Positions 11,889-51,439 of a stretch of 64,000 nucleotides of DNA are shown here, piece by piece. Origin of the DNA: a virus (Duplodnaviria > Heunggongvirae > Uroviricota > Caudoviricetes); IMG/VR virus record IMGVR_UViG_3300042402_002792. The stretch is one strand, 5' to 3'. The notes below the pieces were generated by a model. That model searched no databases and was not told the DNA's origin. It was given only the letters and a program-made list of their open reading frames with translations. How positions within the stretch are numbered: position 1 is the stretch's first letter; the number at the start of each line of letters is the position of its first letter. The position numbers and the translations under genes were made by a program.

Positions 11889-11894
11889 ATACAG

Positions 11895-23329: not shown

Positions 23330-23788
23330 ATGACTAAAACACTTATCGAATACATCGAAGAAGCTGAGTTAGCCGCTACCAGCAACGACATAGAAGCTGG
23401 CGACGATTTTGTATTGGAAATTAATGACGATGTTGCTTTAGAAACGTATGTTATTGAAAGTTGGGACGATAGCGTATTAATTGCAGCAGATGAAGGCGCA
23501 CTACAGTTCTTAGCACAATATTCACAGCAAATTACAGAAGATATTAACGAAGCAGAATATCAAGGACGTAAAGTTGCGTTAGGTAAGCCCATGGCTGGCG
23601 ATGTTAAAAAATCTAAAGTTTATGTTCGCAAACCCAACGGTAGCGTAGTTAAAGTAAATTTTGGTGATAAAAAATTAAGTATTAAAAAACATATCCCAGG
23701 ACGTCGTAAAAGCTTTAGAGCAAGACATAACTGCTCTAATCCAGGTCCTCGTTGGAAAGCACGTTATTGGTCTTGTAGGGCTTGGTGA
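23330..23788 (+). CDS. Putative internal head protein (acidic N-part, basic C-terminal module)
   Basis: INE|AEYQGRKV...RARHNC...KARYWSCRAW basic module. Confidence 0.65.
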   Translation: MTKTLIEYIEEAELAATSNDIEAGDDFVLEINDDVALETYVIESWDDSVLIAADEGALQFLAQYSQQITEDINEAEYQGRKVALGKPMAGDVKKSKVYVRKPNGSVVKVNFGDKKLSIKKHIPGRRKSFRARHNCSNPGPRWKARYWSCRAW

Positions 23789-37399: not shown

Positions 37400-38568
37400 T
37401 GGGAAATTTATTATTCATTATAGCGGCCATGGTTTTTGTACCATGGCTGTTATTAAAAATTACACGTTTAGAAAAGTGGATACCAGTGCCAATGGCGCAG
37501 ATTGCCTTTGGCATTTGTCTTGGACCAAGTGCGCTTGGTTCAAGTTGGCCTGAACTATGGACTACAGTATTCACTCAACCTATTAGAACAGGTCTCGACG
37601 CTATACAAATTCTAGCAATTACTATCTTTGCGTTTATTGCAGGTATTGAATTAAAGCCAAAAGAAGTCATTGCCGAACAAGGTAATGCTATCTGGGGCAA
37701 AGCGTTCCACGTTATTCTAGTACCAATTGTACTTGCTGGTGCAGCTTTTATGGTATTCTTCGATGATCCAGTTTGGCATAATCCTGACGTACCATTTTGG
37801 AAGTATGCTTGGACTATGGGTGTAGCCACTTGTATTACTGCAATGCCTATGCTGGTAGTGGCCAGTCAAAATTTAGGAATTTATAACACTCCTAATTTCC
37901 GTAAGCTGTTAGCCCTAGTGACCTTTGATGATTTGATCCTATGGTTAACTGTAGCAGTTGTTGTCAGTATGGGAAAGTTAGCCATTAACGCATCAATTTT
38001 CTTTGCTGTATTATTTGTACTATACTATGCTTGGCCAAAGATTCTAGAGTTTGCTGGCGAACAATCATATCCTACGTTGACTGTTGCACTAGCATTAAGT
38101 ATGGCGGCATTCAGTTATTGGGCTGGCTTGCATTGGGTATTAGGTGCATTCTTTGCAGGTATGATTACTCCTAGACATGCTATCAAATGGAACGAAGGTA
38201 TGGCTACACAACAGATGTTTTGGTTAATGCCTGTGTTCTTTATCTGGACTGGATTAAAAACAAGCTGGACTTTGGACTTGTCTACAATTTTACTCGGTGC
38301 TATCGGTATGTTTATCATAGCTGTTGCTACTAAGTTTGCAGGTGTTTGGTTAGCCTACAGAGATCAAGGTATGAGAATAGTCTGTTTAAAGACAGCATTA
38401 TTACAAACTAAAGGTCTAATGGAAATCTTTTTGGTCACTATGCTGTTGACAGCAGGCATTATTAGTGTTAATATGTTTGCTGCCGTGGTAATAATGAGTC
38501 TAATCAGTACCGTAGTTGTTGTTCCGCTTGCTCGTTTATTTTATAAGCCTGAGGTAGACAATGTTTAA
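37399..38568 (+). CDS. Cation/H+ antiporter (CPA2, Na_H_Exchanger family)
   Basis: About 12 TM helices; GICLGPS, FIAGIEL, TFDD and LGAFFAG motifs. Confidence 0.85.
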   Translation: MGNLLFIIAAMVFVPWLLLKITRLEKWIPVPMAQIAFGICLGPSALGSSWPELWTTVFTQPIRTGLDAIQILAITIFAFIAGIELKPKEVIAEQGNAIWGKAFHVILVPIVLAGAAFMVFFDDPVWHNPDVPFWKYAWTMGVATCITAMPMLVVASQNLGIYNTPNFRKLLALVTFDDLILWLTVAVVVSMGKLAINASIFFAVLFVLYYAWPKILEFAGEQSYPTLTVALALSMAAFSYWAGLHWVLGAFFAGMITPRHAIKWNEGMATQQMFWLMPVFFIWTGLKTSWTLDLSTILLGAIGMFIIAVATKFAGVWLAYRDQGMRIVCLKTALLQTKGLMEIFLVTMLLTAGIISVNMFAAVVIMSLISTVVVVPLARLFYKPEVDNV

Positions 38569-38794
38569 ATGGTTCTGGAAGTGGGTAGACCCTAGAGAGT
38601 ACGATCCGTTAATCGAAGGTGTCTACGCACATCAGTATCATAACGAAGATGTAAGACAACGTATTATACAGGCATATAAAGAAAAATATATGCCACCTAC
38701 AACACCTCTTACTAATCCGGAGTTATACGATCCTATGAATCCACCAGAAGGTTGGGTGTATGACCCCTACTACGAAATATGGTTAGAAATATAA
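38561..38794 (+). CDS. Hypothetical protein
   Basis: GAGGT SD; PPEGWVYDPYYEIW motif. Confidence 0.6.
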   Translation: MFKWFWKWVDPREYDPLIEGVYAHQYHNEDVRQRIIQAYKEKYMPPTTPLTNPELYDPMNPPEGWVYDPYYEIWLEI

Positions 38795-38796
38795 CA

Positions 38797-40350
38797 ATGA
38801 ATAAAAATTTAACAGCTACACAAAACGATTACGCATACTTCTTGCCAGCTACGTCCGGCTTTTACAGTACGTTTATCGGAAAACAACGATACAGTAATTA
38901 TGTAGATCCTGCACGTATTCCCGCAAGTTTTAAAAACGGGGTTGAAAGTTTAAACTACTTAGACCCTGACAAAGGTGCTTTTTACTATGATCATTGCTTG
39001 TATTCTGCAGGACATGCTAACTTAGATCTTAACAAGACCGACGAAAGCGAAGATATGTTCCGTAATCGCAATCGTGCTACTAGTTGGGTACTAGGTGACT
39101 CAGGTGGCTTCCAGATCGGTAAAGGTGTTTGGCCTGCTGATTGGAAAGATCCTAACTGTCCTAAGGCACAAAAGAAACGTGAACAAGTATTAACTTGGAT
39201 GGACACGTTAATGGACTATGGCATGATTCTTGATATTCCAGCTTGGGTGGCTCGTAGTCCAGCAGGTCGTGCGGCAACTGGTATTAACAGTTATGCAGAA
39301 GCAGTACAAGGTACATACATTAACAACGACTGGTTTATCAATAATCGAAACGGTAATTGTAAGTTCTTAAACGTCTTACAAGGTGAAAATCATGCTGATG
39401 CTGATGATTGGTATGATCGTATGAAGAAGTATTGCGATACAACAATCTATGGCGATCGTGCATTTAATGGTTGGGGTATGGGTGGGCAGAATATGTGCGA
39501 TATCCATCTTGTACTAAAAAGATTAGTAGCATTACGATTCGATGGGTTACTCGAAAAGGGGCAACATGACTGGATGCACTTCTTAGGAACTAGCAAATTA
39601 GAATGGGCTGTGTTGTTAACGGATATTCAACGTGCAGTTCGCAAGTATCATAATCAAAATTTTACTATCAGCTTTGACTGTGCCAGTCCGTTCCTTGCAA
39701 CTGCAAACGGTCAAATCTACATCCAGACCGAAACAGAAGATAGAACCAAATGGGTATACAGAATGCAGTCCTCCGCTGACGATAAGAAATATGCATCTGA
39801 CACTAGACTCTTCAAGGACGCAGTCGTTCAAGACAAGATATTCGGCAATTTTGAATCCAGTCCTATCATTGATCAAGTTGAAATGAAAGATATCTGCATC
39901 TACAAACCAGGCGACCTAAATAAGATAGGTAAAGAAGGTAAAACTTCCTGGGATTCATTTAGTTACGCTATTATGATGGGTCATAATGTTTGGATGCACT
40001 GCAATGCTGTACAAGAAGCTAATCGTCAATATGACGCAGGACGTATACCAGCTATGCTAGTACAAGAAAAATTCGATAGACTGTTCTTTAAAGATATCGT
40101 AGAAGCTATTTTTGCAACCAGTGATCGCGGAACTGCTGATGCTGTTGTTGAAGAATATAGCCGTTTTTGGATGAGTATTATTGGTACTAGAGGTGCAACT
40201 GGTAAAAAGACTGTTAATGCTAGTACTATGTTTGCCAATCTATTTGACGAAGTTAACGCTGAGAGTGTACAATCTGAACACGGTGATGAATTTACCGATG
40301 AGGAAGAATCCAAATTAAACCAGCTAGAATTACAGGCAAAAGAAGAATGA
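38797..40350 (+). CDS. TGT-fold transglycosylase (DpdA-like, deazaguanine DNA insertion)
   Basis: TGT motifs in order: GDSGGFQ, MILDIP, VLQG, GWGMGG, HFLG, SFDCASP. Confidence 0.8.
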   Translation: MNKNLTATQNDYAYFLPATSGFYSTFIGKQRYSNYVDPARIPASFKNGVESLNYLDPDKGAFYYDHCLYSAGHANLDLNKTDESEDMFRNRNRATSWVLGDSGGFQIGKGVWPADWKDPNCPKAQKKREQVLTWMDTLMDYGMILDIPAWVARSPAGRAATGINSYAEAVQGTYINNDWFINNRNGNCKFLNVLQGENHADADDWYDRMKKYCDTTIYGDRAFNGWGMGGQNMCDIHLVLKRLVALRFDGLLEKGQHDWMHFLGTSKLEWAVLLTDIQRAVRKYHNQNFTISFDCASPFLATANGQIYIQTETEDRTKWVYRMQSSADDKKYASDTRLFKDAVVQDKIFGNFESSPIIDQVEMKDICIYKPGDLNKIGKEGKTSWDSFSYAIMMGHNVWMHCNAVQEANRQYDAGRIPAMLVQEKFDRLFFKDIVEAIFATSDRGTADAVVEEYSRFWMSIIGTRGATGKKTVNASTMFANLFDEVNAESVQSEHGDEFTDEEESKLNQLELQAKEE

Positions 40351-40598
40351 CCTTACCTGATGAACGGTATCGTGCTGTTAGAATGGCAGAACAACTGTTA
40401 AAAGATTTGTGTGACCATACTATTACTCCTAGAGTTCCTAAAATTATTAGGCAGCGAGCTAGTGGTTGCTTACGTCATTATCCTAGTAGTTGGGATATGC
40501 AACAAGCTGCCGAAGGAACTCCGCATGTATTTCAAGAACGTATGGAGCCAGTGACCCGTCTATTCAAACAATACGAGCAAAGCAAAAATGAATCGTGA
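40347..40598 (+). CDS. Hypothetical phage protein
   Basis: MTLPDERYRA...PRVPK..R..A..CLRHYP; coupled ORF. Confidence 0.7.
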   Translation: MTLPDERYRAVRMAEQLLKDLCDHTITPRVPKIIRQRASGCLRHYPSSWDMQQAAEGTPHVFQERMEPVTRLFKQYEQSKNES

Positions 40599-41112
40599 TT
40601 ATACAAACGGTGTTGCCAAAGACGTAGTATTTTTCTTTGGCAAAGAAGTAGAACACACACCTGCATACGGAATGGATACATTGTTTATTACCGGAGTGCA
40701 GCCTATTAGTGCTATCGAAAGTGTTTTAAATATACCAAAAAAAGAACCTAATCATATTTTCTTTGGTGCAAATCATAGTTTTAATCCTCAAACATACGAA
40801 GAACACAAACTATGGGAAGAAATGATCCGGTTCTTCTTAGATAAAGATTATCTTTGTTCATTAGATATTCCTATCAATCAAGTAGAAGAATTCAACGAAG
40901 GCGGACTCTGCGAACACGATAATTTTATTCCGCAGATAAGAGTGCCAATTCCTTATGTAAAACTTTGGAATTATAATACAATGCTTAAAATCGATGACAA
41001 AGATTTTAAGGCAACTAATCCCGGTGTATGGTCCCACAGTCTACATACATTAATGGATCGTAGTAAGTTTACAGACTGGTCACAATATAAAAACGATGAG
41101 ATCGTTAAATGA
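40588..41112 (+). CDS. Hypothetical protein within deazaguanine cluster
   Basis: Coupled ORF; EVEHTPAYG and HIFFGANHSF motifs. Confidence 0.75.
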   Translation: MNRDYTNGVAKDVVFFFGKEVEHTPAYGMDTLFITGVQPISAIESVLNIPKKEPNHIFFGANHSFNPQTYEEHKLWEEMIRFFLDKDYLCSLDIPINQVEEFNEGGLCEHDNFIPQIRVPIPYVKLWNYNTMLKIDDKDFKATNPGVWSHSLHTLMDRSKFTDWSQYKNDEIVK

Positions 41113-41498
41113 TTATTAGACAAGACATTCGCCCAAATAAAATGATATGGGTTACCTTTCGCAAAGAAGGTATGCACAAGTATCCTGCCGCACTTACAGA
41201 TCCTGCACTTGCAACAGGTGACGAATATGATGTAAGTTTTCTAGGCTATCCGCATCGTCACATTTTCCACTTTAAAGTTTGGATCGGTGTTACACACGAT
41301 GATCGCGATATTGAGTTTATTCAGTTTAAACGCTGGTTGGAAAAACTGTACTCTGAAGGTACATTACAACTAGACTACAAGAGTTGCGAGATGATGTCAG
41401 GCGATTTGTATGACGCTATCTCCAATAAGTATCCTGACCGTGAGGTTTGGATTGAGGTCTCCGAAGACGGAGAAAATGGTTCTTTTATCAAGTATTAA
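41109..41498 (+). CDS. QueD-like T-fold protein of DpdL type
   Basis: LGYPHRHIF (LxxxHRHxF), EFIQFK, SCE and EVSEDGENG; lacks the QueD CxxxHGH motif. Confidence 0.7.
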   Translation: MIIRQDIRPNKMIWVTFRKEGMHKYPAALTDPALATGDEYDVSFLGYPHRHIFHFKVWIGVTHDDRDIEFIQFKRWLEKLYSEGTLQLDYKSCEMMSGDLYDAISNKYPDREVWIEVSEDGENGSFIKY

Positions 41499-41515
41499 AA
41501 CAAGGAAAGCTAATT

Positions 41516-41776
41516 ATGGCTAAGAATAACTATAAAGACGTTAACTACTTTGAAAATCGTCCTGACATTGTTAAGATTTTTGACGATCTAGAAAAGCTTC
41601 ACGATTTTTGTAGATTTGAAATGCTTCCATTTAATGAAGCAGATCTTTATAACAGACAAAGTGATGTTTGGAACAGATACTTCCAAAGCACACGCCCACG
41701 TAGGCCGCGCGGTGAATGGAACAATAATAGAGAATACAACCGAAGCGGAAATGGAAACCGCAACTATCAACGATGA
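41516..41776 (+). CDS. Hypothetical protein with Arg/Asn-rich tail
   Basis: AAGGA SD; ORF. Confidence 0.65.
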   Translation: MAKNNYKDVNYFENRPDIVKIFDDLEKLHDFCRFEMLPFNEADLYNRQSDVWNRYFQSTRPRRPRGEWNNNREYNRSGNGNRNYQR

Positions 41777-42861
41777 TTTATATTGTTGATTTAGAGGCTG
41801 TAGAAACACGCTACACAGCACAATGGAAAGAACATGTACCTAAAATTCTTAAAAGGGCAGGACACAATGTCAACATTATATCAGGTCCTACGGACATTCC
41901 TAGTGCTACCACTCCTGGAGCATTTCTCAACTTTGGCGGCACTAATATATACAAAGCTAGTCAAGTGGAGCAGATGGGCCGTTTATTTTGTAACGGATCC
42001 ATTAATCCCGGCGATCATTTTGTGTTTACTGATGCTTGGCATCCAGGTATCATTAATCTAAAGTACATGAGTGAACTGCTGGGCATTCCAGTAGTCACAC
42101 ACGGTCTTTGGCATGCTGGCAGTTATGATCCTCAAGATTTCTTAGGTCGTCTTGTTGGTAAGAAGAAGTGGGTTAGACATGCTGAGAAATCATTCTTCCA
42201 CGCATTTGATCATAACTACTTTGCTACAGATTTTCACATTAGAATGTTTGTAGACAACTTATTAGAAGATGGTTATAAGAGTGAGAACCCTTGGTACGAG
42301 GAAGATTACGACGACTTACAAACTAGCGGCAAGATTGTACGCACTGGATGGCCTATGGAATATCTTAAAGATATTCTAGTTCCTTACAAAAATATGCCTA
42401 AGCGCGATTTAATTTTATTTCCTCATCGAATCGCCCCTGAGAAGCAAGTTGAAATTTTTAGAGATTTAAAACATTATTTGCCTCAATACGAGTTTGTTGT
42501 CTGTCAAGATCAACAGTTAACTAAGAACGAGTATCACAACTTATTAGGTGAAGCAAAGTTAGTTTTTAGTGCTAACTTACAAGAAACATTAGGCATTAGT
42601 TGTTATGAAGGTGCTATTGTAGATGCTATTCCTATGGTGCCTAATAGACTTAGCTACACAGAAATGTATTTTGATACATTTAAATATCCTAGCGAATGGA
42701 CTGAAAATTTCGAAGCATATCAGACACACAGACCTTATGTTGCCAAAGCTATCATAGAGCATATGGAGAATTATCGAACAAGGCTTCCTATGCTTATTAA
42801 ACAAACGGAGGCTCTGCATGAGCAATTCTTCTCAGCAAACAAACTTGTATCAAGGTTTTGA
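41773..42861 (+). CDS. GT-B fold glycosyltransferase
   Basis: FPHRIAPEKQ and ETLGISCYE (E-x7-E) signature of retaining GT-B enzymes. Confidence 0.8.
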   Translation: MIYIVDLEAVETRYTAQWKEHVPKILKRAGHNVNIISGPTDIPSATTPGAFLNFGGTNIYKASQVEQMGRLFCNGSINPGDHFVFTDAWHPGIINLKYMSELLGIPVVTHGLWHAGSYDPQDFLGRLVGKKKWVRHAEKSFFHAFDHNYFATDFHIRMFVDNLLEDGYKSENPWYEEDYDDLQTSGKIVRTGWPMEYLKDILVPYKNMPKRDLILFPHRIAPEKQVEIFRDLKHYLPQYEFVVCQDQQLTKNEYHNLLGEAKLVFSANLQETLGISCYEGAIVDAIPMVPNRLSYTEMYFDTFKYPSEWTENFEAYQTHRPYVAKAIIEHMENYRTRLPMLIKQTEALHEQFFSANKLVSRF

Positions 42862-43243
42862 AGCTAAAGATATAGAAACTTTAATAAAAGAATGTACTAT
42901 TGATCTTAGTGGAACTGGTGCAAACATGAATGATATGTCTATTACTAATTCATATAGTGGTCAATCTTACAGTTACACTACTGCTACTCCTACAATAACT
43001 ATCGGCACAGGCGGTGCAAGTACTTACTCTATAGGCACATTGAGTACTACTGATATAATTACAATGGATAGTAGTAGTTTTACATTTAATCTACCAACAG
43101 AATGGATAGATTGCTTACCTCCACTAGATCGTATTCAAGATATGTGTGAAAAATATCCCGGATTAAAAATTGCATTTAATAATTTCAAAGTTGTATATGA
43201 GATGGTAAAGGACGATTATGATAATCCAGTTCCTAAAAAATAA
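42818..43243 (+). CDS. Hypothetical protein (Thr/Ser-rich)
   Basis: Overlapping ORF; C-terminal MCEKYPGLKIAFNNFK.VY motif. Confidence 0.6.
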   Translation: MSNSSQQTNLYQGFEAKDIETLIKECTIDLSGTGANMNDMSITNSYSGQSYSYTTATPTITIGTGGASTYSIGTLSTTDIITMDSSSFTFNLPTEWIDCLPPLDRIQDMCEKYPGLKIAFNNFKVVYEMVKDDYDNPVPKK

Positions 43244-43697
43244 ATTTTTTCAACTGTTAGAACGTAACGACCGTAAAAGAATTATTATGGATCGTGTGGA
43301 CAATGAACCATATCTTGAACGCTACTATGTGTTTCTTAAAGATAGAACATGGTTTCCATTTAATGTATTCTTACACAAGTTTCTTAAATCAGATCCAGAT
43401 GATGTACATGATCATCCATGGCCCTATGCAACACTAATACTTAAAGGTGGGTATTATGAATGGATTCCAGAATTTAACAGCAAAGGCGAAAAGATTAGTG
43501 AGATTGCAAAGTGGCGAGCTCCTGGTCATTTTCGTTTTTGTAGTGCTACTAGTTATCACAGGATTGAATTAGACCCCAATGTAGAATGTTGGACTATGTT
43601 TATGCCTGGACCGCAAAAGAGAGAATGGGGATTCCTCGTAAAGAATAAATGGATACCGAATGGCGACTACCTTAAACAACGTAAAATCAGCGGGTAA
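43218..43697 (+). CDS. Cupin-fold protein
   Basis: HDHPW...LKGGYYE...YHRIEL motif. Confidence 0.7.
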   Translation: MIIQFLKNKFFQLLERNDRKRIIMDRVDNEPYLERYYVFLKDRTWFPFNVFLHKFLKSDPDDVHDHPWPYATLILKGGYYEWIPEFNSKGEKISEIAKWRAPGHFRFCSATSYHRIELDPNVECWTMFMPGPQKREWGFLVKNKWIPNGDYLKQRKISG

Positions 43698-44034
43698 TTT
43701 AGTTTATACTACTAATAGTACAGCCGGGCAGTTTTTAACAAGTACTGGATCTAACGGCACTAGTTGGACTACAAATACCGTATCATCATATGACAATGTA
43801 ATGGTTGTTAGCGGTGGCGATCCGGCCAGTTTAGAAGTTAAAGGCAGAATGGTAATTAACGGACGAGACTTAGAAGAACGGTTAGACACTATTGAAAAAG
43901 TCTTGCAGATTCCTGAAAGAGATGTTAAACTAGAAAAGAAGCACCCGAAGTTAAAGAAACTGTATGATGAATACATTAATGCCTTAGGTAAGTATAGAAC
44001 ATTTGAAGCAATTAAAGGAGAAGAAAATGACTGA
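43660..44034 (+). CDS. Hypothetical protein
   Basis: Overlapping ORF; C-terminal LEKKHPKLKKLYDEY resembles 42818-43243. Confidence 0.6.
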   Translation: MATTLNNVKSAGNLVYTTNSTAGQFLTSTGSNGTSWTTNTVSSYDNVMVVSGGDPASLEVKGRMVINGRDLEERLDTIEKVLQIPERDVKLEKKHPKLKKLYDEYINALGKYRTFEAIKGEEND

Positions 44035-44230
44035 GTTAATGATTAAAGATAGTCCAGGATTTCAATTACGTCTTAAAAAATGGGAGTGTTTAAGCCCTAA
44101 AGGTTTATATGCGGTTCATTTCATACAGGCAACTAAAGATCAAGATGGCAACATTGATAACGAATCAACATATGAATTCTTTATGGATGCCGAAGAACTG
44201 TCTAACTTATCTAACGCTTTGGTAAAATGA
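44027..44230 (+). CDS. Hypothetical protein
   Basis: AAAGGAG SD before ATG 44027. Confidence 0.6.
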   Translation: MTELMIKDSPGFQLRLKKWECLSPKGLYAVHFIQATKDQDGNIDNESTYEFFMDAEELSNLSNALVK

Positions 44231-44811
44231 AAAAAGTTTATTACTCATGGCGGCAGATCGAAGGTGCAGTTGTAGATATTGCTAGACAACTACAAAAAGA
44301 TCAATGGTATCCAGACTATATAGTTGGCATTACTAGAGGGGGTGCTATTCCTGCTGTAATGCTTAGTCAATACTTAGGTGTACCAATGCGACCATTAGCA
44401 GTAAGCCTAAGAGACGGTGGTGAATGTGTTAGTGATTGTGGCATGGCGGAGGATGCGCTAGGTTATCCTAAACAAGAACGATTTGTTGCTGACGAAAATG
44501 ACATTGGTAGTGTTTTAGATGCTGCTAGTTCAATGTTAGAACAAGGCGAAAACTTTAAAAATATTCTTGTTGTAGATGACATTAATGATAGTGGTGCTAC
44601 TATTGCATGGATTAAAAAAGACTGGCCTAGTAGCTGTTTGCCAGATGACCCAGATTGGCAACATGTTTGGAGTAACAATGTAAGATTTGCTACACTTACT
44701 AATAACTTAGCCAGTCAAGAAACAGTAGATTATTCGGTATGGGAAGTAAACAAATCAGAAGAAGATTGCTGGCTTGTTTACCCGTGGGAGGAGTTTTGGA
44801 AAAATGACTGA
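44227..44811 (+). CDS. Purine phosphoribosyltransferase (type I PRTase, XGPRT-like)
   Basis: YIVGITRGG and ILVVDDINDSGAT PRPP-binding motif; WLVYPWE. Confidence 0.85.
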   Translation: MKKVYYSWRQIEGAVVDIARQLQKDQWYPDYIVGITRGGAIPAVMLSQYLGVPMRPLAVSLRDGGECVSDCGMAEDALGYPKQERFVADENDIGSVLDAASSMLEQGENFKNILVVDDINDSGATIAWIKKDWPSSCLPDDPDWQHVWSNNVRFATLTNNLASQETVDYSVWEVNKSEEDCWLVYPWEEFWKND

Positions 44812-45193
44812 TTTAGAAAGGGCATTAGATGAAAAAAGAGCACCGTGGACAGAAATCGAGTTTCGAACAGAAAAATTTTGGATATTCAGAGACGCTTATC
44901 CAGTTACCCAAGGGCATTTGTTATTTGTGCCTACCCAAGAACGATTTGAAAATATCATGGAGTGCTACAAAGCGGCCTACAAATGGGGGTTCGACGGAGT
45001 CCAAACAGAAAGTTGGCAGGCTTTTAATGTCGGACAAAATGTAGGGGAAGCCGCTGGTCAAACAGTAATGTATCCGCATATTCACATGATTCCTCGTAGA
45101 TCAGGTGATATGACCGATCCTCGTGGCGGTGTGCGTCACGTTATACCAGAAAAAGGAAATTATCGTGTACAAAAGCAGAATACAGATGCTTGA
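44804..45193 (+). CDS. HIT-family nucleotide hydrolase
   Basis: D.YPVTQGHLL.VP; NVG..AGQTV.YPHIHMIPR. Confidence 0.88.
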   Translation: MTDLERALDEKRAPWTEIEFRTEKFWIFRDAYPVTQGHLLFVPTQERFENIMECYKAAYKWGFDGVQTESWQAFNVGQNVGEAAGQTVMYPHIHMIPRRSGDMTDPRGGVRHVIPEKGNYRVQKQNTDA

Positions 45194-45362
45194 AGAAAGT
45201 CATCGATTGCTAGACAAGCAGATTACTGAAGGCAATTATACTGAAGAACAAATTTCAGAAATGAAAAAGCGTAAACTTATGCTTAAAGATGAAATTGCCC
45301 GACTAACTAAATTACAATGGATTGAAGATCATGAGAGCGTTGACTTCGACGACGACAGATAA
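45165..45362 (+). CDS. DUF465/YdcH-like coiled-coil protein
   Basis: GTG start after AAAGGA; LEESHRLLDKQI...KRKLMLKDEI. Confidence 0.6.
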   Translation: MYKSRIQMLEESHRLLDKQITEGNYTEEQISEMKKRKLMLKDEIARLTKLQWIEDHESVDFDDDR

Positions 45363-45567
45363 GACATTCCCCCACGAAGTTGTTGTCCCTTGGCATAGTG
45401 AACAAGGCACTGTCTGGTGGAATGAAACTTGCGCTATGGTATTAGAAGTGTTTGGTTTGCCTGGACATAGGTTTATGTATAGACCTTATCTAGACTATAT
45501 GGTTTTCGAGTTTGAATCAAAAAAAGACGAACAACTTTGCAGAATACTATTAAGTGAAAGAATATGA
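45322..45567 (+). CDS. Hypothetical protein
   Basis: Coupled ORF; start uncertain. Confidence 0.55.
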   Translation: MKIMRALTSTTTDKTFPHEVVVPWHSEQGTVWWNETCAMVLEVFGLPGHRFMYRPYLDYMVFEFESKKDEQLCRILLSERI

Positions 45568-45755
45568 AATACGCTATTGGTGCTATTATTGCCACTATAT
45601 GTTGGATGATTGTTTTATCCCTTATTCCTATGCCCGAAGAACGTGTTCGTATCTATGACTGCGGCATGGCAGAGTGGCACCCTGATATTCCGTCAGATGT
45701 TAAAGAAGCTTGTAGGAAACGATTTAAAAAGGCGCCTGCCGGTCCTCAAACATGA
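45564..45755 (+). CDS. Small membrane-anchored protein
   Basis: N-terminal TM; YDCGMAEWHPD.P.DVKEACR. Confidence 0.6.
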   Translation: MKYAIGAIIATICWMIVLSLIPMPEERVRIYDCGMAEWHPDIPSDVKEACRKRFKKAPAGPQT

Positions 45756-46030
45756 TTAACTTTTTTATTAGAATTAGAAATCCTTTTAGCCATAAGTTTG
45801 TTAACTTATGGTCTCGTACATTTAAAACGCCATTTAAAAAGAAATTTATCGAATTAGAGTTTTATCGTGACAGTAGTTTGTTAGCATGTACGATTGACTG
45901 GACAGTAAGACAAAATCACGCAGGATTAAATTTAGAATTAGGTATTGCCGGTTATTGTTTTAATTTTACATTCTACGATAGTAGGCATTGGAATCATGCA
46001 GCTGGTAGATACGAATTGTATAACGAATGA
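45752..46030 (+). CDS. Hypothetical protein
   Basis: Coupled ORF. Confidence 0.55.
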   Translation: MINFFIRIRNPFSHKFVNLWSRTFKTPFKKKFIELEFYRDSSLLACTIDWTVRQNHAGLNLELGIAGYCFNFTFYDSRHWNHAAGRYELYNE

Positions 46031-46842
46031 CACAATATAATATGTTTGATATGCCTAAAATAGGAATAGTCGGTGCTGGATTTGTAGGAGGTGCCATTGC
46101 CGTTTGTTATCGAGAACGAAACTTCGATGTGATTTGTGTCGATGCAGATCCTGCAAAAAGCACAGGTACATATGCAGACTTAGAAGATTGTGAAGCTGTG
46201 TTTGTATGTGTGCCTAGCCCTAGTAAAGAAACTGGAGATTGCGATACTAGTATTTTAAATACAGTCCTATATCTGCTTAGAAATTTTAAAAATGTTATTA
46301 TTAGTAAAACAACTGCGCCGCCTGCATTTTATGAAAAAATGCAAACTGTGTATCCTAACTTAGTACATGTTCCCGAATTTTTAACTGCTAACAACGCTGT
46401 TCATGATTTTTTTAATCAAGACAATGTAATTATTGGAGGACAAGTATTAGCTTATCAACGAGAAGCAGAAAGAATACTAAGAGGTGTGCAACAGCTTAAA
46501 CAAGTACAGTTTACTAGTATAGGCGAAGCTGCTTTAGCCAAATATATTATCAATTCATTTTTAGCTACTAAAGTAGTCTTTATGAACGAAATGGAAGAAC
46601 TAGCAAGAGCTCATAATTATGAATGGAAAGATATTGTTCATTCAGTTATGATGGACAAACGTATCGGGCCTAGTCATTTACAAGTACCCGGTCCGGACGG
46701 ATTTTACGGGTTTGGTGGAATGTGTTTTCCTAAAGATACTAATGCGTTAGTAAAATATGCCAGTAAGTTAGGCGTACAATTGAACATATTGAAGTCCGCA
46801 ATTAAGAAAAATGTCCTATTAAGGTTGCAAAAACCTAAATAA
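46027..46842 (+). CDS. UDP-glucose/GDP-mannose dehydrogenase-like (lacks C-terminal domain)
   Basis: GAGFVG, FVCVPSP, PEFL, KY..NSFLA.K..F.NE and GFGGMCFPKD. Confidence 0.88.
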   Translation: MTQYNMFDMPKIGIVGAGFVGGAIAVCYRERNFDVICVDADPAKSTGTYADLEDCEAVFVCVPSPSKETGDCDTSILNTVLYLLRNFKNVIISKTTAPPAFYEKMQTVYPNLVHVPEFLTANNAVHDFFNQDNVIIGGQVLAYQREAERILRGVQQLKQVQFTSIGEAALAKYIINSFLATKVVFMNEMEELARAHNYEWKDIVHSVMMDKRIGPSHLQVPGPDGFYGFGGMCFPKDTNALVKYASKLGVQLNILKSAIKKNVLLRLQKPK

Positions 46843-46853
46843 TCTAGTACAAT
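46825..46853 (+). promoter_or_regulatory. Promoter TTGCAA-17-TACAAT with TAAATA in the spacer
   Basis: Upstream of folE. Confidence 0.6.
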
Positions 46854-46891
46854 GTACAACAGTCATCCACGACAATAACTCGGAGAATAAT

Positions 46892-47638
46892 TTGACAAAC
46901 AAAAATGAAACAGGCCTGGACGCAATGGCAGGCGACGGTGGCTATCAAGAAGCTTACCTAGGCGATCATATTCGCTTTAAAATGAAACGTGACGGTAAAA
47001 GATTTTGGGCTGGGGATAATATCAGTGAATATCTTTGGCAAGGCGATATAGAACGTTTAATCGACGAAGCAACACCAGCGTTTGAACAAGTGCTAGATAA
47101 ATTACTTATTGATCGTGAGAACGATCCTAACTCAAAAGGCACAGCAAGACGTCTTGCTAAAATGTACTTTAACGAAATAATGGCAGGTAGATATGAAACA
47201 GCACCAGACGCAACAGCGTTTCCAAATGATTCAGCAGACCGTTACGAAGGCATGCTTGTTGTCCGCAGTGAGCTTCGCAGTATGTGTAGCCATCATCATC
47301 AGCCCGTTAGTGGCGTGGCATATATCGGGATCATTGCCGCCAACAAACTCATTGGGCTTTCCAAATACACTCGTATCGCACAGTGGTGTGCCAGGCGCGG
47401 GACGCTTCAAGAAGAGCTCTGCAATGACATTGCCCGTGAAATCATGCGAGCCACTGACTCAGAAAATGTAGCAGTGTACATTCAGGCTACACACGGCTGC
47501 TGTGAAAATCGCGGTATTATGGCACATAGCAGTCTAACACAGACTACTGTACTCAAAGGTGCGTTTAAAGATGACATGGGTACTAAGAAAGAGTTTTTTG
47601 ACAATATTAAAATGCAACAAGAGTTTGCACCACGTTAA
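46892..47638 (+). CDS. folE: GTP cyclohydrolase I
   Basis: T..RLAKMY, SMCSHHHQP, GLSKYTRI, LQEEL and HGCCENRG. Confidence 0.93.
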   Translation: MTNKNETGLDAMAGDGGYQEAYLGDHIRFKMKRDGKRFWAGDNISEYLWQGDIERLIDEATPAFEQVLDKLLIDRENDPNSKGTARRLAKMYFNEIMAGRYETAPDATAFPNDSADRYEGMLVVRSELRSMCSHHHQPVSGVAYIGIIAANKLIGLSKYTRIAQWCARRGTLQEELCNDIAREIMRATDSENVAVYIQATHGCCENRGIMAHSSLTQTTVLKGAFKDDMGTKKEFFDNIKMQQEFAPR

Positions 47639-47647
47639 GGAGATAAC

Positions 47648-47839
47648 ATGGCAACTAGAAAAAAGAAAGAATTAGAAGTAGAAACATGGCCTAAAATCAT
47701 TGTTGGCAGTCATAGTACACGTACAGAATATGAAGACGGTCGTGTTGAATTAGTTACTGACTGGGAAGCACTACAGAGAGATGTTCGAGAGGCTATTGCT
47801 AGTGTAGAAACTAAACCAAAACGCAAGGCAAAGATATGA
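47648..47839 (+). CDS. Hypothetical protein
   Basis: AAGGAG SD. Confidence 0.6.
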   Translation: MATRKKKELEVETWPKIIVGSHSTRTEYEDGRVELVTDWEALQRDVREAIASVETKPKRKAKI

Positions 47840-48351
47840 GTCAAGTATATCTAATCAAACCACTTGAAAAGAAAAGTGTTGTCTACCACGTAGAGATGTT
47901 TAGAGAAAATGCAGACGGTAGTATTAGTTGGTTTAACATAGACGAAACTTATCGCTGGGGTCAAGGCTTTGTGGAAGGTGATTTAGATTGCAATCTTCCA
48001 TGGGAAGGCGATGATGTTGCCTATGCTCGAGCAGATGCAGGGTGGGGTTGCGAATTCGATGATAGTTGTAGCGTCGAATGGGAGTTCAGTGACGACATTG
48101 ACGAAATGGAACAACAAGAACTCAAAGAATTGTATTACGAAGGCGGTGCTGGTTGGTTGTTCGACGGTGAACACGATTGGCAAGAAGAAGATACTGCTGT
48201 ACACGTTATTGCACCATATCAAGTTAGTTTATGTGATGAGCTAACAGGCGAAGTTATTGAAGAAAATGTTAAATTAAAGACTCGTCCAAATCCAAATACT
48301 GCATGGCCATTTAGTGAAGCATTTCCAAAAGATAGTGAACAAGGTGAATAA
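47836..48351 (+). CDS. Acidic Trp-rich hypothetical protein
   Basis: Coupled ORF. Confidence 0.65.
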   Translation: MSQVYLIKPLEKKSVVYHVEMFRENADGSISWFNIDETYRWGQGFVEGDLDCNLPWEGDDVAYARADAGWGCEFDDSCSVEWEFSDDIDEMEQQELKELYYEGGAGWLFDGEHDWQEEDTAVHVIAPYQVSLCDELTGEVIEENVKLKTRPNPNTAWPFSEAFPKDSEQGE

Positions 48352-48352
48352 T

Positions 48353-48568
48353 ATGAACTCAGTTGATATGGCTAATAATCTAATCTCTCGTGCAAGGAAT
48401 CTAAACGAATTTACTGTTACTACAGAAGTTCCAGAAGATCTTCGCTTTAATGGTGAGATTCCATTTGACATGCAGATTAAAGATAGTATAATAACAGCTA
48501 AAGTGTGGGCTGTAGACTTCGACGAGGCTGCAAAAAGATTAGATGATTTTTTAGGAACATGTAAATGA
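48353..48568 (+). CDS. Hypothetical protein
   Basis: AAGGTG SD before ATG 48353. Confidence 0.6.
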   Translation: MNSVDMANNLISRARNLNEFTVTTEVPEDLRFNGEIPFDMQIKDSIITAKVWAVDFDEAAKRLDDFLGTCK

Positions 48569-48861
48569 AATGGTTTAAAAAGATGTTGTGGCGGTGGAGC
48601 TATCAAGGTCAAGAATTAGAAGAACAGACTGGTAAAATTCCTAGAGGATTAGTCACCTCAAGAGACTCAGAAGCCGTATGTGGTGACGAGCCTGTGTTAA
48701 ACTTTAAAGTTTATTCGGCAGTAGGTGGTAAGGTTGTAGAGTTTAGACGTTATGACCGCCATAAGGATCGCAATGATACTACTACTTACATTATTACTAA
48801 TGATCAAGACTTCGGTGAAAGAATTAGTAAAATTGCAACAATGGAAAAATTAAAGTTATGA
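48565..48861 (+). CDS. Hypothetical protein
   Basis: Coupled ORF. Confidence 0.6.
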   Translation: MKWFKKMLWRWSYQGQELEEQTGKIPRGLVTSRDSEAVCGDEPVLNFKVYSAVGGKVVEFRRYDRHKDRNDTTTYIITNDQDFGERISKIATMEKLKL

Positions 48862-49715
48862 GCAAAATTAAAATTGCAGAGCTGTTTTACAGCATACAAG
48901 GTGAAGGACGCTATATGGGTGTGCCTTCTGTTTTCTTACGTACATTTGGCTGTAACTTCAAATGTCAAGGTTTTGGTATGCCACGTGGTGAACTAAGTCA
49001 AGAAGCAAATAATATTAATCCTTTAGAATTTAAAACATACAATGAACTTCCGCTCGTTAGTACTGGTTGCGATAGTTATGCTTCTTGGGACCCACGTTTT
49101 AAGGACCTTAGTCCTATGCTTACAACAGACGCCATCGCAGATAGAATTACGGAGATACTGCCCTACAATGAGTGGAAAGACGAACATCTAGTTATTACAG
49201 GCGGTGAGCCATTACTAGGTTGGCAACGTGCTTATCCAGACTTACTAGATCATCCCAAGATGGCAGGGTTAACAGAGATTACATTTGAAACTAACGGTAC
49301 TCAACAGTTATCGCCAGAATTTAAAGAGTACTTAAAAAAATGGCAAATAAGGGCTTGGCACAACGGTGGTCCTGTACGTGAGATTACATTCTCAGTAAGT
49401 GCCAAACTTCCGTGTAGTGGAGAGAAGTGGGAAGATGCTATCTGTCCAGAAGTAGTATGCGAGTACGAACAAGTTGGTACAGCCTATTTGAAATTTGTTA
49501 TTGCTACCGAAGATGATTTTGATGACGCAATAACAGCTACTCTCGAATTTCGTAAGGCAGGATTTAGAGGGCATGTGTATCTAATGCCTGTAGGTGGTGT
49601 TGAAAGTGTTTACGCATTAAACAATCGTACAGTGGCAGACTTAGCTATGAAGCATGGGCTACGCTACAGTGATAGATTGCAAGTGCCGTTGTTTAAAAAC
49701 GAGTGGGGTACCTAA
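48858..49715 (+). CDS. queE: 7-carboxy-7-deazaguanine synthase (radical SAM)
   Basis: ELFYSIQGEG...G.PSVFLR..GCNFKC...CDS, VITGGEPLL, ETNGT and SDRLQ. Confidence 0.9.
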   Translation: MSKIKIAELFYSIQGEGRYMGVPSVFLRTFGCNFKCQGFGMPRGELSQEANNINPLEFKTYNELPLVSTGCDSYASWDPRFKDLSPMLTTDAIADRITEILPYNEWKDEHLVITGGEPLLGWQRAYPDLLDHPKMAGLTEITFETNGTQQLSPEFKEYLKKWQIRAWHNGGPVREITFSVSAKLPCSGEKWEDAICPEVVCEYEQVGTAYLKFVIATEDDFDDAITATLEFRKAGFRGHVYLMPVGGVESVYALNNRTVADLAMKHGLRYSDRLQVPLFKNEWGT

Positions 49716-50006: not shown

Positions 50007-50456
50007 ATGAAAAATTTTATTAAAAAATTATTTGGCATTGCCGAAATGGAAGAAGCGTTAGCTGAAACTCAAAAAAAGATTGCTGAGGCGGAGGCACAAG
50101 TTACCAAAGCCAAAGAGTCTGCAGAAAAGGCTCTTCAAGACGAAGCTCAAGCAAAAATGACTCCTAAAGAAAGAGCTAATGCAAAGGGAGAAGCGTGGGT
50201 TAGTGTTTTAGATACTCATGTTAATAAAGATAATATTAAGAATGGCTTTTTTGAGCTTGACTGGAATGATCTTTTTATAGTACAATTGAAACAAGCCGGT
50301 TATGGATTCGACGGTGATCCAGAAGAAGAAATTGTAGATCGTTGGTTTAGAGATATTGTAAGAAATATGCTAGCTGATGAAGGTATGGATACTGGTCGAG
50401 GTGCTGGTTATATAAATGTAATTCCAATTAACAAAAATCAATCAGAGGTTTCATGA
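50007..50456 (+). CDS. Hypothetical phage protein
   Basis: Coiled N-part; GFFELDWN motif. Confidence 0.7.
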   Translation: MKNFIKKLFGIAEMEEALAETQKKIAEAEAQVTKAKESAEKALQDEAQAKMTPKERANAKGEAWVSVLDTHVNKDNIKNGFFELDWNDLFIVQLKQAGYGFDGDPEEEIVDRWFRDIVRNMLADEGMDTGRGAGYINVIPINKNQSEVS

Positions 50457-51439
50457 ACTATATTCTCGTAGATACTGCTAACACATTCTTTCGTGCTAGA
50501 CATGTAATTAGAGGAGATGCTGACACTAAACTAGGTATGGCTCTTCATATTACCTTTAACAGTATCAAAAAGGCATGGCAAGACTTCGGCGGTAGTCATG
50601 TAGTGTTCTGCCTCGAAGGTCGTAGCTGGCGCAAGGACTTTTATAAGCCTTATAAAGCTAATCGAGCAGAAACTCGTGCGGCAATGACTGTAAAAGAACA
50701 AGAAGAGGACAAACTGTTTTGGGAAACGTTTGATACGTTTAAAGACTTCATTATTAATAAAACAAATTGTACAGTATTACAAAATGGACAATTAGAAGCA
50801 GATGATTTGATTGCAGGCTTCATTCAAACGCACCCTAACGATAACCATATTATTATTTCAACAGACAGTGATTTTTATCAGCTGATTGCTCCTAATGTGC
50901 GACAATACAACGGTGTAATGGAAACTACTATTACACACGAAGGTATTTTTGACAAGAAAAATAAGAGTGTACTAGATAAAAAAACTAAAGAACCTGTAGG
51001 TGCTCCTAATCCAGAATGGTTATTGTTTGAGAAATGTATGCGTGGCGACAGCTCAGACAATGTATTCTCGGCATATCCCGGTGTGCGTGTTAAGGGTACT
51101 AAGACTAAAGTTGGCTTGCAAGAAGCATTTGAGGATCGTAACAAGAAAGGATATTCTTGGAATAATCTCATGTTACAACGTTGGGTTGATCACGAAGGTG
51201 CCGAACATAGAGTATTAGATGACTACGAACGTAATCGCACACTTATTGATCTTGCCGCACAACCCGAAACTGTTAAAGAACTAATTGCTACTACTATTAG
51301 ACAAGCTACTAGTGAACCTAAAAACATTAGTCAAGTTGGTATTAGACTATTAAAATTTTGTAATCTATATGATATGCAAAAGATTTCAGATAACATTCAG
51401 CAGTATGCTGAACCCTTTCAAGCGAGATACACACAATGA
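50453..51439 (+). CDS. rnh: RNase H / 5'-3' exonuclease (T4 rnh, FEN-like)
   Basis: ILVD..N, WRK.FY.PYKANR, LEADD, ISTDSDF and GDSSDN. Confidence 0.88.
   Translation: MNYILVDTANTFFRARHVIRGDADTKLGMALHITFNSIKKAWQDFGGSHVVFCLEGRSWRKDFYKPYKANRAETRAAMTVKEQEEDKLFWETFDTFKDFIINKTNCTVLQNGQLEADDLIAGFIQTHPNDNHIIISTDSDFYQLIAPNVRQYNGVMETTITHEGIFDKKNKSVLDKKTKEPVGAPNPEWLLFEKCMRGDSSDNVFSAYPGVRVKGTKTKVGLQEAFEDRNKKGYSWNNLMLQRWVDHEGAEHRVLDDYERNRTLIDLAAQPETVKELIATTIRQATSEPKNISQVGIRLLKFCNLYDMQKISDNIQQYAEPFQARYTQ

What the first reader, a model, noticed from the sequence alone, without database searches (positions are those of the whole stretch)
38797..49715. 7-deazaguanine DNA-modification cluster lacking QueC and canonical QueD but carrying a DpdL-type T-fold enzyme
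Seen: a TGT-fold protein with all catalytic motifs (38797-40350), a T-fold protein with LxxxHRHxF instead of the QueD CxxxHGH motif (41109-41498), FolE (46892) and QueE (48858). No QueC, QueF, ArcS or canonical QueD is in the window. Established: FolE-QueD-QueE make CDG from GTP, QueC converts CDG to preQ0, and DpdA-family transglycosylases exchange deazaguanines into DNA. As I recall, LxxxHRHxF marks DpdL, a CDG decarboxylase giving unsubstituted 7-deazaguanine; this needs verifying. Inference: the genome carries dDG or dCDG (or a further-modified derivative) in place of some G, as an anti-restriction measure. QueD activity would come from the host, from elsewhere in the genome, or from the T-fold protein itself.
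Basis: partly seen in the sequence, partly recalled or inferred. Interest (0 to 1): 0.8.

Follow-up and report, generated by a model that had tools for sequence, protein, structure and literature searches.

The report
Phage guanine-replacement (7-deazaguanine) gene module
A giant lake-water phage carries the known "DpdL-type" gene set for swapping guanine in its DNA for a 7-deazaguanine base; the apparently missing QueD gene lies just outside the window, and a tightly linked sugar-transferase hints that the final base may carry a decoration nobody has yet described.

Summary
The window has a TGT-fold protein with the catalytic motifs (38779-40350), a DpdL homologue with LGYPHRHIF (41109-41498), FolE (46892-47638) and QueE (48858-49715). 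It has no QueC or QueD.

The "missing QueD" is a window-edge artefact. The window comes from a 363,992-bp metagenomic phage contig, a relative of Pseudomonas jumbo phage PA5oct. That contig has a PF01242 (PTPS/QueD) gene about 11.8 kb before window base 1. Its CxxxHGY motif matches the QueDs of the published DpdL phages phiST and ACP17.

QueC is absent from complete PA5oct and from five related 150-223 kb contigs. The gene set therefore equals the published DpdL signature (Cui et al. 2023): DpdA, FolE, QueD, QueE, DpdL and no QueC.

- The transglycosylase is a very divergent, unclassified DpdA. It is detectable only by fold and profile, and is nearest DpdA2, not DpdA3.
- A GT4-like glycosyltransferase is linked to DpdL in at least 7 phage lineages, but is absent from phiST, the only DpdL phage with measured dDG.
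- A Gpt-like phosphoribosyltransferase recurs in such clusters.

The product is probably 7-deazaguanine or a further-modified, possibly glycosylated, derivative. The scan had already flagged the glycosyltransferase on this window.

The parts
38779..40350 (+). Divergent DpdA-like DNA transglycosylase candidate (TGT fold, 523 aa; P0001)
   Evidence: AF2 pLDDT 90.5. Foldseek to TGT, E 5e-7. VIA Z 14.4-17.4 to ArcTGT, QTRT2, TGT and DpdA. hhalign to E. coli Tgt 89%, VH7D DpdA2 96.2%, ACP17 DpdA 96.8%, phiST DpdA3 56%. Invariant D107, D152, D300 in 53 homologues.
40347..40598 (+). 83-aa BPSL0761-family small protein, function unknown
   Evidence: NF041728, 2.4e-16. Present in 18 of 22 relatives.
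40588..41112 (+). 174-aa conserved orphan, overlapping and presumably translationally coupled to dpdL
   Evidence: No family hit. Present in 22 of 22 relatives, always just before DpdL.
41109..41498 (+). DpdL homologue (Cys-less QueD-like protein; proposed CDG decarboxylase)
   Evidence: Motif LGYPHRHIF. phrog_17812, 1.9e-31. tblastn to the ACP17 and phiST DpdL. Family invariants H23, H49, H51, H63, E69, C93, E94, E119, D120.
41516..41776 (+). 86-aa conserved orphan
   Evidence: Present in 22 of 22 relatives. No family hit.
41773..42861 (+). GT4-like (GT-B) glycosyltransferase linked to DpdL (P0153)
   Evidence: 34% identity to ACP17 ASD50404, E 3e-62. EX7E motif E271-E279. Four of 6 family members hit PF00534, best 6.8e-12. 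Atlas GT1 clusters. Adjacent to DpdL in 7 phage lineages. Present in 22 of 22 relatives.
42818..44034 (+). Three conserved orphans (141, 159 and 124 aa)
   Evidence: Present in 20, 22 and 21 of 22 relatives. No family hits.
44227..44811 (+). Gpt-like (xanthine/guanine) phosphoribosyltransferase
   Evidence: PF00156, 2.4e-11, and NF006613, 3e-12. PRPP motif ILVVDDINDSGAT. Only 8 phage records match, all DpdL phages or next to FolE. Present in 17 of 22 relatives.
44774..45193 (+). HIT-family (HinT-like) nucleotide hydrolase/transferase, accessory
   Evidence: PF01230, 2.5e-8. Present in 13 of 22 relatives. The parent-contig gene call is 129 aa.
46027..46842 (+). Truncated UDP-glucose/GDP-mannose dehydrogenase-like protein (N-terminal and central domains only)
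   Evidence: PF00984, 5e-22, and PF03721, 3e-20. Present in 17 of 22 relatives, sometimes relocated to just upstream of the DpdA-like gene.
46892..47638 (+). FolE, GTP cyclohydrolase I
   Evidence: PF01227, 1.3e-39, above the cut-off. phrog_2197, 1e-44. Present in 22 of 22 relatives.
48858..49715 (+). QueE-like radical-SAM CDG synthase
   Evidence: phrog_2076, 9e-51. Several NCBIfam QueE models at 1e-10 to 1e-15, below cut-off. 28% identity to PA5oct QueE. Present in 21 of 22 relatives.

Best explanation
This is the guanine-replacement module of an uncultured ~364-kb freshwater jumbo phage distantly related to Pseudomonas phage PA5oct. It sits in the replication gene block, between the family-B DNA polymerase and the 5'-3' exonuclease.

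Proposed pathway:
- GTP is converted by FolE (in the window), QueD (on the same contig, ~11.8 kb before the window) and QueE (in the window) to 7-carboxy-7-deazaguanine (CDG).
- There is no QueC, so the pathway does not go on to preQ0.
- DpdL is inferred, following the literature proposal, to decarboxylate CDG to 7-deazaguanine.
- The divergent DpdA-like TGT-fold enzyme is inferred to exchange that base for G in phage DNA after replication, using the conserved Asp pair.
- The Gpt-like PRTase most plausibly recycles the displaced guanine to GMP and GTP to feed FolE.
- The invariably linked GT4 glycosyltransferase may decorate the base further.

Shown here: gene identities, folds, motifs, synteny and co-occurrence. 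Inferred: every enzymatic step beyond family assignment, the DNA substrate, and the identity of the final base.
For: TGT fold and aligned catalytic motifs. Profile similarity to VH7D DpdA2, an experimentally validated DNA transglycosylase (PMC10516641).

The DpdL homology and motif are confirmed.

FolE and QueE are present. QueD lies on the parent contig, and that contig's gene calls match the window exactly.

No QueC in PA5oct or in five related contigs. Two of those contigs together span about 325 kb around the locus.

No canonical PF01702 TGT in PA5oct, ACP17, Phosso, G002 or G003, so the divergent TGT-fold protein is the only transglycosylase candidate.

Same synteny in PA5oct. PA5oct DNA resists five G-containing restriction enzymes and is attacked by nucleases that sense modified G (PMC12191111).

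The module is conserved in 22 of 22 environmental relatives.
Against: DpdL's decarboxylase activity is only a published prediction. Co-expression of dpdL and dpdA from phiST and ACP17 in E. coli gave no dDG (PMC10516641).

I could not confirm the T-fold of P0002 independently. hhalign against QueD gave only 48.6%, with no Pfam or PDB hit.

The transglycosylase belongs to no named DpdA subfamily by sequence.

The GT4 linkage suggests that plain dDG may not be the end product.
Confidence: 0.78

Rival explanations
1. The end product is not dDG but a glycosylated (or otherwise sugar-linked) 7-deazaguanine derivative. After DpdL and DpdA act, or on the free base, the GT4 enzyme transfers a sugar. 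The donor would be supplied or tailored by the variable sugar-nucleotide genes (UGDH-like here; Gfo/Idh/MocA plus ADH, PIG-L deacetylase or a second GT in relatives).
For: The GT4 homologue is adjacent to DpdL in PA5oct-like phages, Phosso, ACP17, BUDD/X1, BCSR5 and BUCT-ZZ01, and in 22 of 22 environmental relatives.

Sugar-chemistry genes vary within the same clusters.

phiST, the only phage with measured dDG, lacks the GT.

ACP17 dpdA plus dpdL alone gave no dDG in E. coli, and the authors themselves suggest another enzyme may be needed.

PA5oct behaves as 'hypermodified' DNA.
Against: 7-deazaguanine has no obvious hydroxyl acceptor.

RHph_I1_18, Bakedbeans and Ahp1 carry close DpdL homologues without the GT, so the GT is dispensable for DpdL function.

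The GT could instead glycosylate a protein, a lipid or another base.

The structure prediction for the GT failed (pLDDT 46.9).
Confidence: 0.3
2. Pre-replicative route. The Gpt-like PRTase converts the free deazaguanine base with PRPP into a nucleotide. Kinases and ribonucleotide reductase then turn it into the dNTP, which the phage polymerase incorporates. The TGT-fold protein would play a minor or different role.
For: The Gpt-like PRTase lies inside or beside deazaguanine or FolE operons in every phage record where tblastn finds it. It is also present in PA5oct next to DpdL.

The module adjoins the DNA polymerase.

By established knowledge, the toyocamycin pathway uses a PRTase on preQ0.
Against: The TGT-fold protein keeps all catalytic residues under strong conservation.

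The PRTase is missing from 5 of 22 relatives, while DpdA and DpdL are in 22 of 22.

The literature finds a DpdA in every 7-deazaguanine phage and argues for post-replicative insertion.

Guanine salvage explains the PRTase equally well.
Confidence: 0.12
3. The module acts on RNA (tRNA queuosine- or archaeosine-like modification, or host tRNA manipulation) rather than on DNA.
For: The closest solved structures are tRNA-guanine transglycosylases.
Against: The tRNA-TGT zinc motif (CxCxxC...H) is not conserved (invariants; the hhalign alignment ends before it).

There is no QueA, QueG, QueF or QueC.

The profile is closer to the DNA-acting DpdA2 (96%) than to Tgt (89%).

The genes sit in a replication-gene context.

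PA5oct DNA is restriction resistant.
Confidence: 0.04

Closest known systems
[quoted passage not shown]
   Same: The gene set is the same: a DpdA-family transglycosylase, FolE, QueD, QueE and DpdL with LxxxHRHxF, and no QueC. The genes sit next to the replication genes. The QueD is of the CxxxHGY type. Like ACP17, this phage also has the GT4 gene next to DpdL.
   Different: The transglycosylase has no BLAST similarity to the phiST DpdA3 (259 aa) or the ACP17 DpdA2-type protein (424 aa); only hhalign links them. QueD is about 50 kb away from the rest of the module. phiST lacks the GT4. The product is unmeasured here, whereas dDG replaces 100% of G in phiST.
Pseudomonas jumbo phage PA5oct locus EST35_0316-0322 (MK797984)
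   Same: The order is syntenic: DNA polymerase, DpdA-like (33.6% identity), GT4 (43.6%), DpdL (57%), PRTase-like, QueE, RNase H-like exonuclease. QueD lies about 53 kb upstream and there is no QueC. PA5oct is the only cultured relative with experimental hints of modified G (PMC12191111).
   Different: In PA5oct FolE sits with QueD, not with QueE. PA5oct lacks the 174-, 86-, 159- and 124-aa orphans, the HIT gene and the UGDH-like gene. Its DpdL has F instead of R in the motif (HFH). PA5oct has two PTPS paralogues.
DpdA2 of Vibrio phages VH7D and nt-1 (experimentally validated DNA transglycosylases)
   Same: TGT fold. The DSGG(F/L)Q, LD, (V/I)LQG, H(F/M)LG and IS(F/Y)D motifs align, with hhalign 96.2% and E 2.5e-9.
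   Different: No BLAST-level similarity. VH7D and nt-1 co-occur with QueC (and QueF or ArcS), and insert preQ0 or preQ1 at low frequency.
Bacterial tRNA-guanine transglycosylase (Tgt) and bacterial DpdA (PDB 7ui4)
   Same: (beta/alpha)8 TGT fold and the catalytic Asp pair.
   Different: No zinc-binding subdomain motif is conserved. There is about 200 aa of extra C-terminal helical region. Sequence identity is 13-15%. The context is phage replication genes.

Membership tests
DpdA / TGT superfamily transglycosylase | TGT-type (beta/alpha)8 barrel fold | tested here: met
   AF2 pLDDT 90.5. Foldseek TGT, prob 1.0, E 5e-7. VIA Z 17.4, 16.1, 15.6 and 14.4 for ArcTGT, QTRT2, TGT and DpdA, against 11.8 or less for other TIM barrels.
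DpdA / TGT superfamily transglycosylase | Catalytic aspartates and substrate-binding Asp (E. coli Tgt D89, D143, D264) | tested here: met
   hhalign aligns D107, D152 and D300 with them. All three are invariant in 53 homologues.
DpdA / TGT superfamily transglycosylase | Assignment to a named phage subfamily (DpdA1-4) | tested here: inconclusive
   No BLAST hit to any of them. hhalign gives 96-97% to DpdA2-type proteins (VH7D, ACP17) and 56% to the phiST DpdA3. No tree was built.
DpdA / TGT superfamily transglycosylase | Exchanges G in DNA for a 7-deazaguanine | not testable with these tools
   Inferred from context only.
tRNA-guanine transglycosylase (Tgt, PF01702) | Pfam PF01702 match and the CxCxxC...H zinc site | tested here: not met
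   No PF01702 hit. No conserved Cys in the A1 invariants.
DpdL | Sequence homology to the named DpdL proteins (phiST CGPG_00067, ACP17) | tested here: met
   tblastn 54.6% (3e-35) to ACP17 and 31% (6e-8) to phiST.
DpdL | LxxxHRHxF in place of the QueD CxxxHGH; three His and two Glu retained | tested here: met
   L45..H49-R-H51-I-F53. H23, H49, H51, E94 and E119 are invariant in 8 DpdLs.
DpdL | T-fold / QueD-like structure | tested here: inconclusive
   hhalign of the DpdL profile against a QueD profile gives 48.6%, E 1.8e-4, over the C-terminal 45 columns only. No Pfam or PDB sequence hit. The literature reports HHpred 99.89% for the phiST DpdL.
DpdL | Genome context: DpdA, FolE, QueD and QueE present, QueC absent | tested here: met
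   FolE, QueE and DpdA-like are in the window. QueD is on the parent contig. QueC is absent from the window, from PA5oct and from 5 relatives. The own contig could not be searched as a whole.
DpdL | CDG decarboxylase activity | not testable with these tools
   Also unproven in the literature.
QueD (PTPS, PF01242) | A PF01242 gene with the catalytic Cys motif in the genome | tested here: met
   None in the window. A 175-aa PF01242 gene lies on the parent contig ~11.8 kb upstream. A contig with the same gene order and lengths (L099) carries the equivalent gene with HSHCSLLHGY. TIGR03367, 2.7e-8, below cut-off.
FolE (GTP cyclohydrolase I) | PF01227 above the gathering score | tested here: met
   136 bits against a cut-off of 27.
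QueE (radical-SAM CDG synthase) | QueE family profile match | tested here: met
   phrog_2076, 9e-51 over the full length. NCBIfam QueE equivalogs at 40-55 bits, below their cut-offs. 27.7% identity, E 3e-32, to a Stenotrophomonas phage QueE homologue.
GT4-like GT-B glycosyltransferase | Glycos_transf_1 domain with the EX7E motif | tested here: inconclusive
   P0153 itself has no Pfam hit. Four of 6 aligned family members hit PF00534, best 6.8e-12. E271-x7-E279 is invariant. Atlas neighbours are GT1 clusters. The AF2 model was unusable.
Type I purine PRTase (Gpt-like) | PF00156 above cut-off and the PRPP-binding loop | tested here: met
   43.7 bits against 26.3. NF006613 xanthine PRT, 3e-12, below cut-off. 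Motif VVDDINDSGAT.

The most novel reading that the evidence does not exclude
In most DpdL phages (this abundant lake jumbo-phage clade, PA5oct, ACP17, Phosso, BUDD/X1, BCSR5 and the cyanophage BUCT-ZZ01), DpdL and DpdA work together with a dedicated GT4 glycosyltransferase. The result would be a sugar-bearing 7-deazaguanine in DNA, a hypermodified purine not yet described. A Gpt-like PRTase would close a guanine-recycling loop that sustains high-level replacement of G.
Probability: 0.27. Interest if true: 0.85.

Novelty: new member of a known kind. Interest (0 to 1): 0.55.

Why it matters
Only the phiST group has chemical data for DpdL-type systems, and the key enzyme DpdL has never been shown to work.

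This window shows the same system in an extremely abundant clade of freshwater jumbo phages: 540 related IMG/VR contigs, and more than 8000 90%-identity clusters of the linked GT. It ties that clade to a cultivable proxy, PA5oct, whose DNA is already known to resist restriction at G-containing sites.

Two accessory genes recur and are not mentioned in the defining paper. They give concrete candidates for the "other unknown enzymes" invoked to explain the failed reconstitution:
- a GT4 glycosyltransferase linked to DpdL in at least 7 lineages;
- a Gpt-like PRTase found almost only in such clusters.

They also make the question "what base do these phages really carry?" directly testable.

The case also shows that a "missing" pathway gene in a 64-kb window of a 364-kb genome should not be read as absent.

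Tried and rejected
- Megablast of the cluster against GenBank phages found no match.
- Pfam, NCBIfam and PHROGs on the TGT-like protein gave nothing. A profile search against PDB sequences also gave nothing. Fold search was needed.
- The window's own assembly is not held. DNA of the 363,992-bp parent contig is not retrievable, so QueC and QueF could not be searched genome-wide. ENA contigs cannot be used as the genome search handles.
- AF2 of the glycosyltransferase with a shallow MSA (78-100% identity) failed, pLDDT 46.9. I ran no fold search on it.
- The DpdL profile against PDB sequences gave only chance thioredoxin hits. DpdL against a single QueD sequence gave hhalign 0.9%.
- Atlas searches on the 174-aa and 159-aa orphans were uninformative.
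- The N-terminal 260 aa of the Bakedbeans 'fused' DpdL ORF has no homologue in any other cluster, so it offers no Rosetta-stone link.
- A weak phmmer hit of a PA5oct PTPS to window ORF 23330-23788 (14 bits) was not supported by Pfam.
- The supplementary tables of PMC10516641 are not held. I could not see how its authors classified the PA5oct proteins.
- I rejected the idea that the T-fold protein doubles as QueD, because a separate QueD exists on the contig.
- I rejected the DpdA3 label for the transglycosylase, because profile similarity is better to DpdA2.

Full report
**What is in the window**

The region 33.9-51.4 kb is one co-directional block on the + strand. In order it encodes:
- a family-B DNA polymerase (33965-36628);
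- a 244-aa protein;
- a Na+/H+ exchanger (37399-38568);
- a 523-aa protein, P0001 (38779-40350);
- ORFs of 83 and 174 aa;
- a 129-aa protein, P0002 (41109-41498);
- an 86-aa ORF;
- a 362-aa protein, P0153 (41773-42861);
- three small orphans;
- a phosphoribosyltransferase (44227-44811);
- a HIT protein;
- a truncated UDP-glucose-dehydrogenase-like protein (46027-46842);
- FolE (46892-47638);
- QueE (48858-49715);
- a 5'-3' exonuclease (50453-51439).

**Observation check**

FolE is unambiguous: PF01227, 1.3e-39. QueE matches phrog_2076 at 9e-51 and several NCBIfam QueE models below their cut-offs.

P0001 has no Pfam, NCBIfam or PHROG hit. I collected 980 representative homologues, aligned 53 of them (A1) and folded the protein, giving pLDDT 90.5.
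- Foldseek puts Z. mobilis tRNA-guanine transglycosylase first (E 5e-7, prob 1.0).
- An exhaustive VIA-align search ranks ArcTGT (Z 17.4), QTRT2 (16.1), bacterial TGT (15.6), bacterial DpdA 7ui4 (14.4) and Cap10 (13.8). All stand above the generic TIM barrels, which score 11.8 or less.
- hhalign of A1 against E. coli Tgt (89%, E 2e-6) aligns GDSGGFQ, LD, VLQG, GWGMGG, HFLG and FDCASP with the Tgt catalytic motifs.
- D107, D152 and D300 are invariant in the family.
- The tRNA-TGT zinc motif is not conserved.

So "a TGT-fold protein with all catalytic motifs" is correct.

P0002 carries LGYPHRHIF. It is 54.6% identical to the ACP17 protein and 31% to the phiST protein that Cui, Hutinet et al. named DpdL. 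[quoted passage not shown]

An 8-sequence DpdL alignment keeps H23, H49, H51, H63, E69, C93, E94, E119 and D120 invariant.

I could not independently confirm the T-fold.

**The "missing QueD" is a window-edge artefact**

The window's assembly is not held. Exact-protein look-ups nevertheless place the window on a 363,992-bp JGI contig whose gene calls match the window gene for gene.

Walking upstream on that contig shows a 175-aa PF01242 (PTPS) gene. In window coordinates it lies at about -12288 to -11761, that is ~11.8 kb before base 1. It sits behind a 2499-aa giant gene.

A contig with the same gene order and gene lengths across this stretch (L099) supplied DNA for the equivalent gene. Its product has HSHCSLLHGY. 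This CxxxHGY type aligns with the annotated QueDs of ACP17, phiST and one of the two PA5oct PTPS paralogues.

In PA5oct and in two related 212- and 223-kb IMG/VR contigs, QueD also lies 46-53 kb upstream of the transglycosylase gene. Synteny mapping puts the window's left end roughly 10 kb short of it.

Within the window, tblastn and phmmer with six QueD and two QueC queries find nothing.

**QueC**

PF06508 is absent from the complete PA5oct genome and from five related contigs of 150-223 kb. Two of these contigs together span about 162 kb upstream and 163 kb downstream of the locus. No canonical PF01702 TGT exists in PA5oct, ACP17, Phosso or the two large contigs.

I could not search the window's own contig as a whole.

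**What kind of DpdA**

P0001 finds only PA5oct-like phages, Phosso and one Vibrio phage by tblastn. It finds no named DpdA.

The ACP17 transglycosylase turns out to be DpdA2-type: 34-36% identical to the experimentally validated nt-1 and VH7D DpdA2.

The P0001 family profile matches:
- ACP17 (96.8%, E 2.7e-10);
- VH7D DpdA2 (96.2%, E 2.5e-9);
- the BUDD and BUCT-ZZ01 proteins (94-95%);
- the phiST DpdA3 at only 56%.

It is therefore a remote, unclassified DpdA clade nearest DpdA2. It is very common in metagenomes, with 540 IMG/VR loci.

**Accessory genes**

P0153 is 34% identical to the ACP17 gene between dpdA and dpdL (E 3e-62) and 43.6% to PA5oct EST35_0317. The family has an invariant EX7E motif. 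Four of six members hit PF00534. Atlas neighbours are GT1/GT4 clusters. AF2 failed on a shallow MSA.

Homologues lie within 3 kb of DpdL in PA5oct-like phages, Phosso, ACP17, BUDD/X1, BCSR5 and BUCT-ZZ01. They are present in 22 of 22 environmental relatives. Whole-genome HMM searches find none in phiST, RHph_I1_18, Bakedbeans or Ahp1.

Variable sugar-chemistry genes accompany the GT:
- a UGDH-like gene here, in 17 of 22 relatives;
- Gfo/Idh/MocA plus ADH genes in one relative;
- a PIG-L deacetylase in BCSR5;
- a second GT in BUCT-ZZ01.

The defining paper does not mention glycosyltransferases or phosphoribosyltransferases.

The PRTase resembles Gpt and has the PRPP loop. In 50,697 phage records it hits only eight: five phiST-group phages, BUCT-ZZ01 (inside the operon) and two Brevundimonas phages (next to FolE). 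PA5oct has a weaker homologue beside DpdL.

**Mechanism**

Shown here: family assignments, motifs, synteny and co-occurrence.

Inferred:
- GTP goes through FolE, QueD and QueE to CDG.
- With no QueC, DpdL decarboxylates CDG to 7-deazaguanine. This is the literature proposal and is unproven.
- The DpdA-like enzyme exchanges that base for G in DNA.
- Gpt-like salvage returns the displaced guanine to GTP.
- GT4 may add a sugar.

Indirect experimental support comes from PA5oct. [quoted passage not shown]

**Verdict**

This is a new member of the published DpdL-type 7-deazaguanine systems.

The open and interesting part is the conserved GT4 and PRTase linkage, together with the unknown chemical identity of the base in the GT-bearing majority of DpdL phages. 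I tested their conservation and family assignment here.

Noticed in passing
parent contig, about 19 to 9 kb upstream of window base 1 (seen via L098/L099): Three radical-SAM genes (459, 351 and 420 aa, one with a faint SPASM hit), followed by the QueD gene, UvdE, Fe/Mn superoxide dismutase, an Fe-S biosynthesis protein and a 2499-aa giant protein with an E1_FCCH hit.
   Followed up: no
window 37399-38568: Na+/H+ exchanger gene (PF00999, 1.8e-23) wedged between replication genes and the DpdA-like gene. It is present in only 1 of 46 related IMG/VR loci. In many relatives the UGDH-like gene occupies this position, so this looks like a recent insertion or swap.
   Followed up: partly
window 14076-14684 and 32677-33324: Two 2OG-Fe(II) oxygenase (PF13759) genes. 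Nearby are a MazG-like PRA-PH protein (11436-11846), a cytidylyltransferase-like protein (11859-12308) and a dCMP deaminase (13577-14086). These are nucleotide-metabolism genes that might bear on DNA modification.
   Followed up: no
L003/L004 (PA5oct 169215-169715 and 171534-171944): PA5oct has two PTPS/QueD paralogues, one with the canonical CxxxHGH and one with CxxxHGY, next to its FolE. Relative G002 carries a CxxxHGH-type gene, whereas L099, the contig that mirrors the window's own contig here, carries the CxxxHGY type.
   Followed up: partly
L116 (Burkholderia phage BCSR5) and L106 (Xanthomonas phage BUDD): Both DpdL clusters hold a PAPS-reductase-domain (PP-loop ATPase superfamily, like QueC) protein. 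BCSR5 also has a PIG-L family deacetylase and an AAA_28 protein between DpdL and the GT. This suggests carboxylate activation and amino-sugar chemistry.
   Followed up: no
L114:5212-6363 (Vibrio phage Bakedbeans gp176): DpdL is annotated as the C-terminal third of a 383-aa ORF. The N-terminal 260 aa has no homologue in other DpdL clusters, so this is either a fusion or an over-extended start.
   Followed up: partly
L112:6247-7140 (Stenotrophomonas phage Marzo): The second gene annotated 'QueC-like' is really a QueE homologue (27.7% identity, E 3e-32, to the window's QueE). This looks like an annotation error in the public record.
   Followed up: partly
L107 (ENA contig, 79% GT identity): A close relative has Gfo/Idh/MocA and Zn-ADH-like genes upstream of the 171-aa gene, and lacks the HIT gene.
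   Followed up: no
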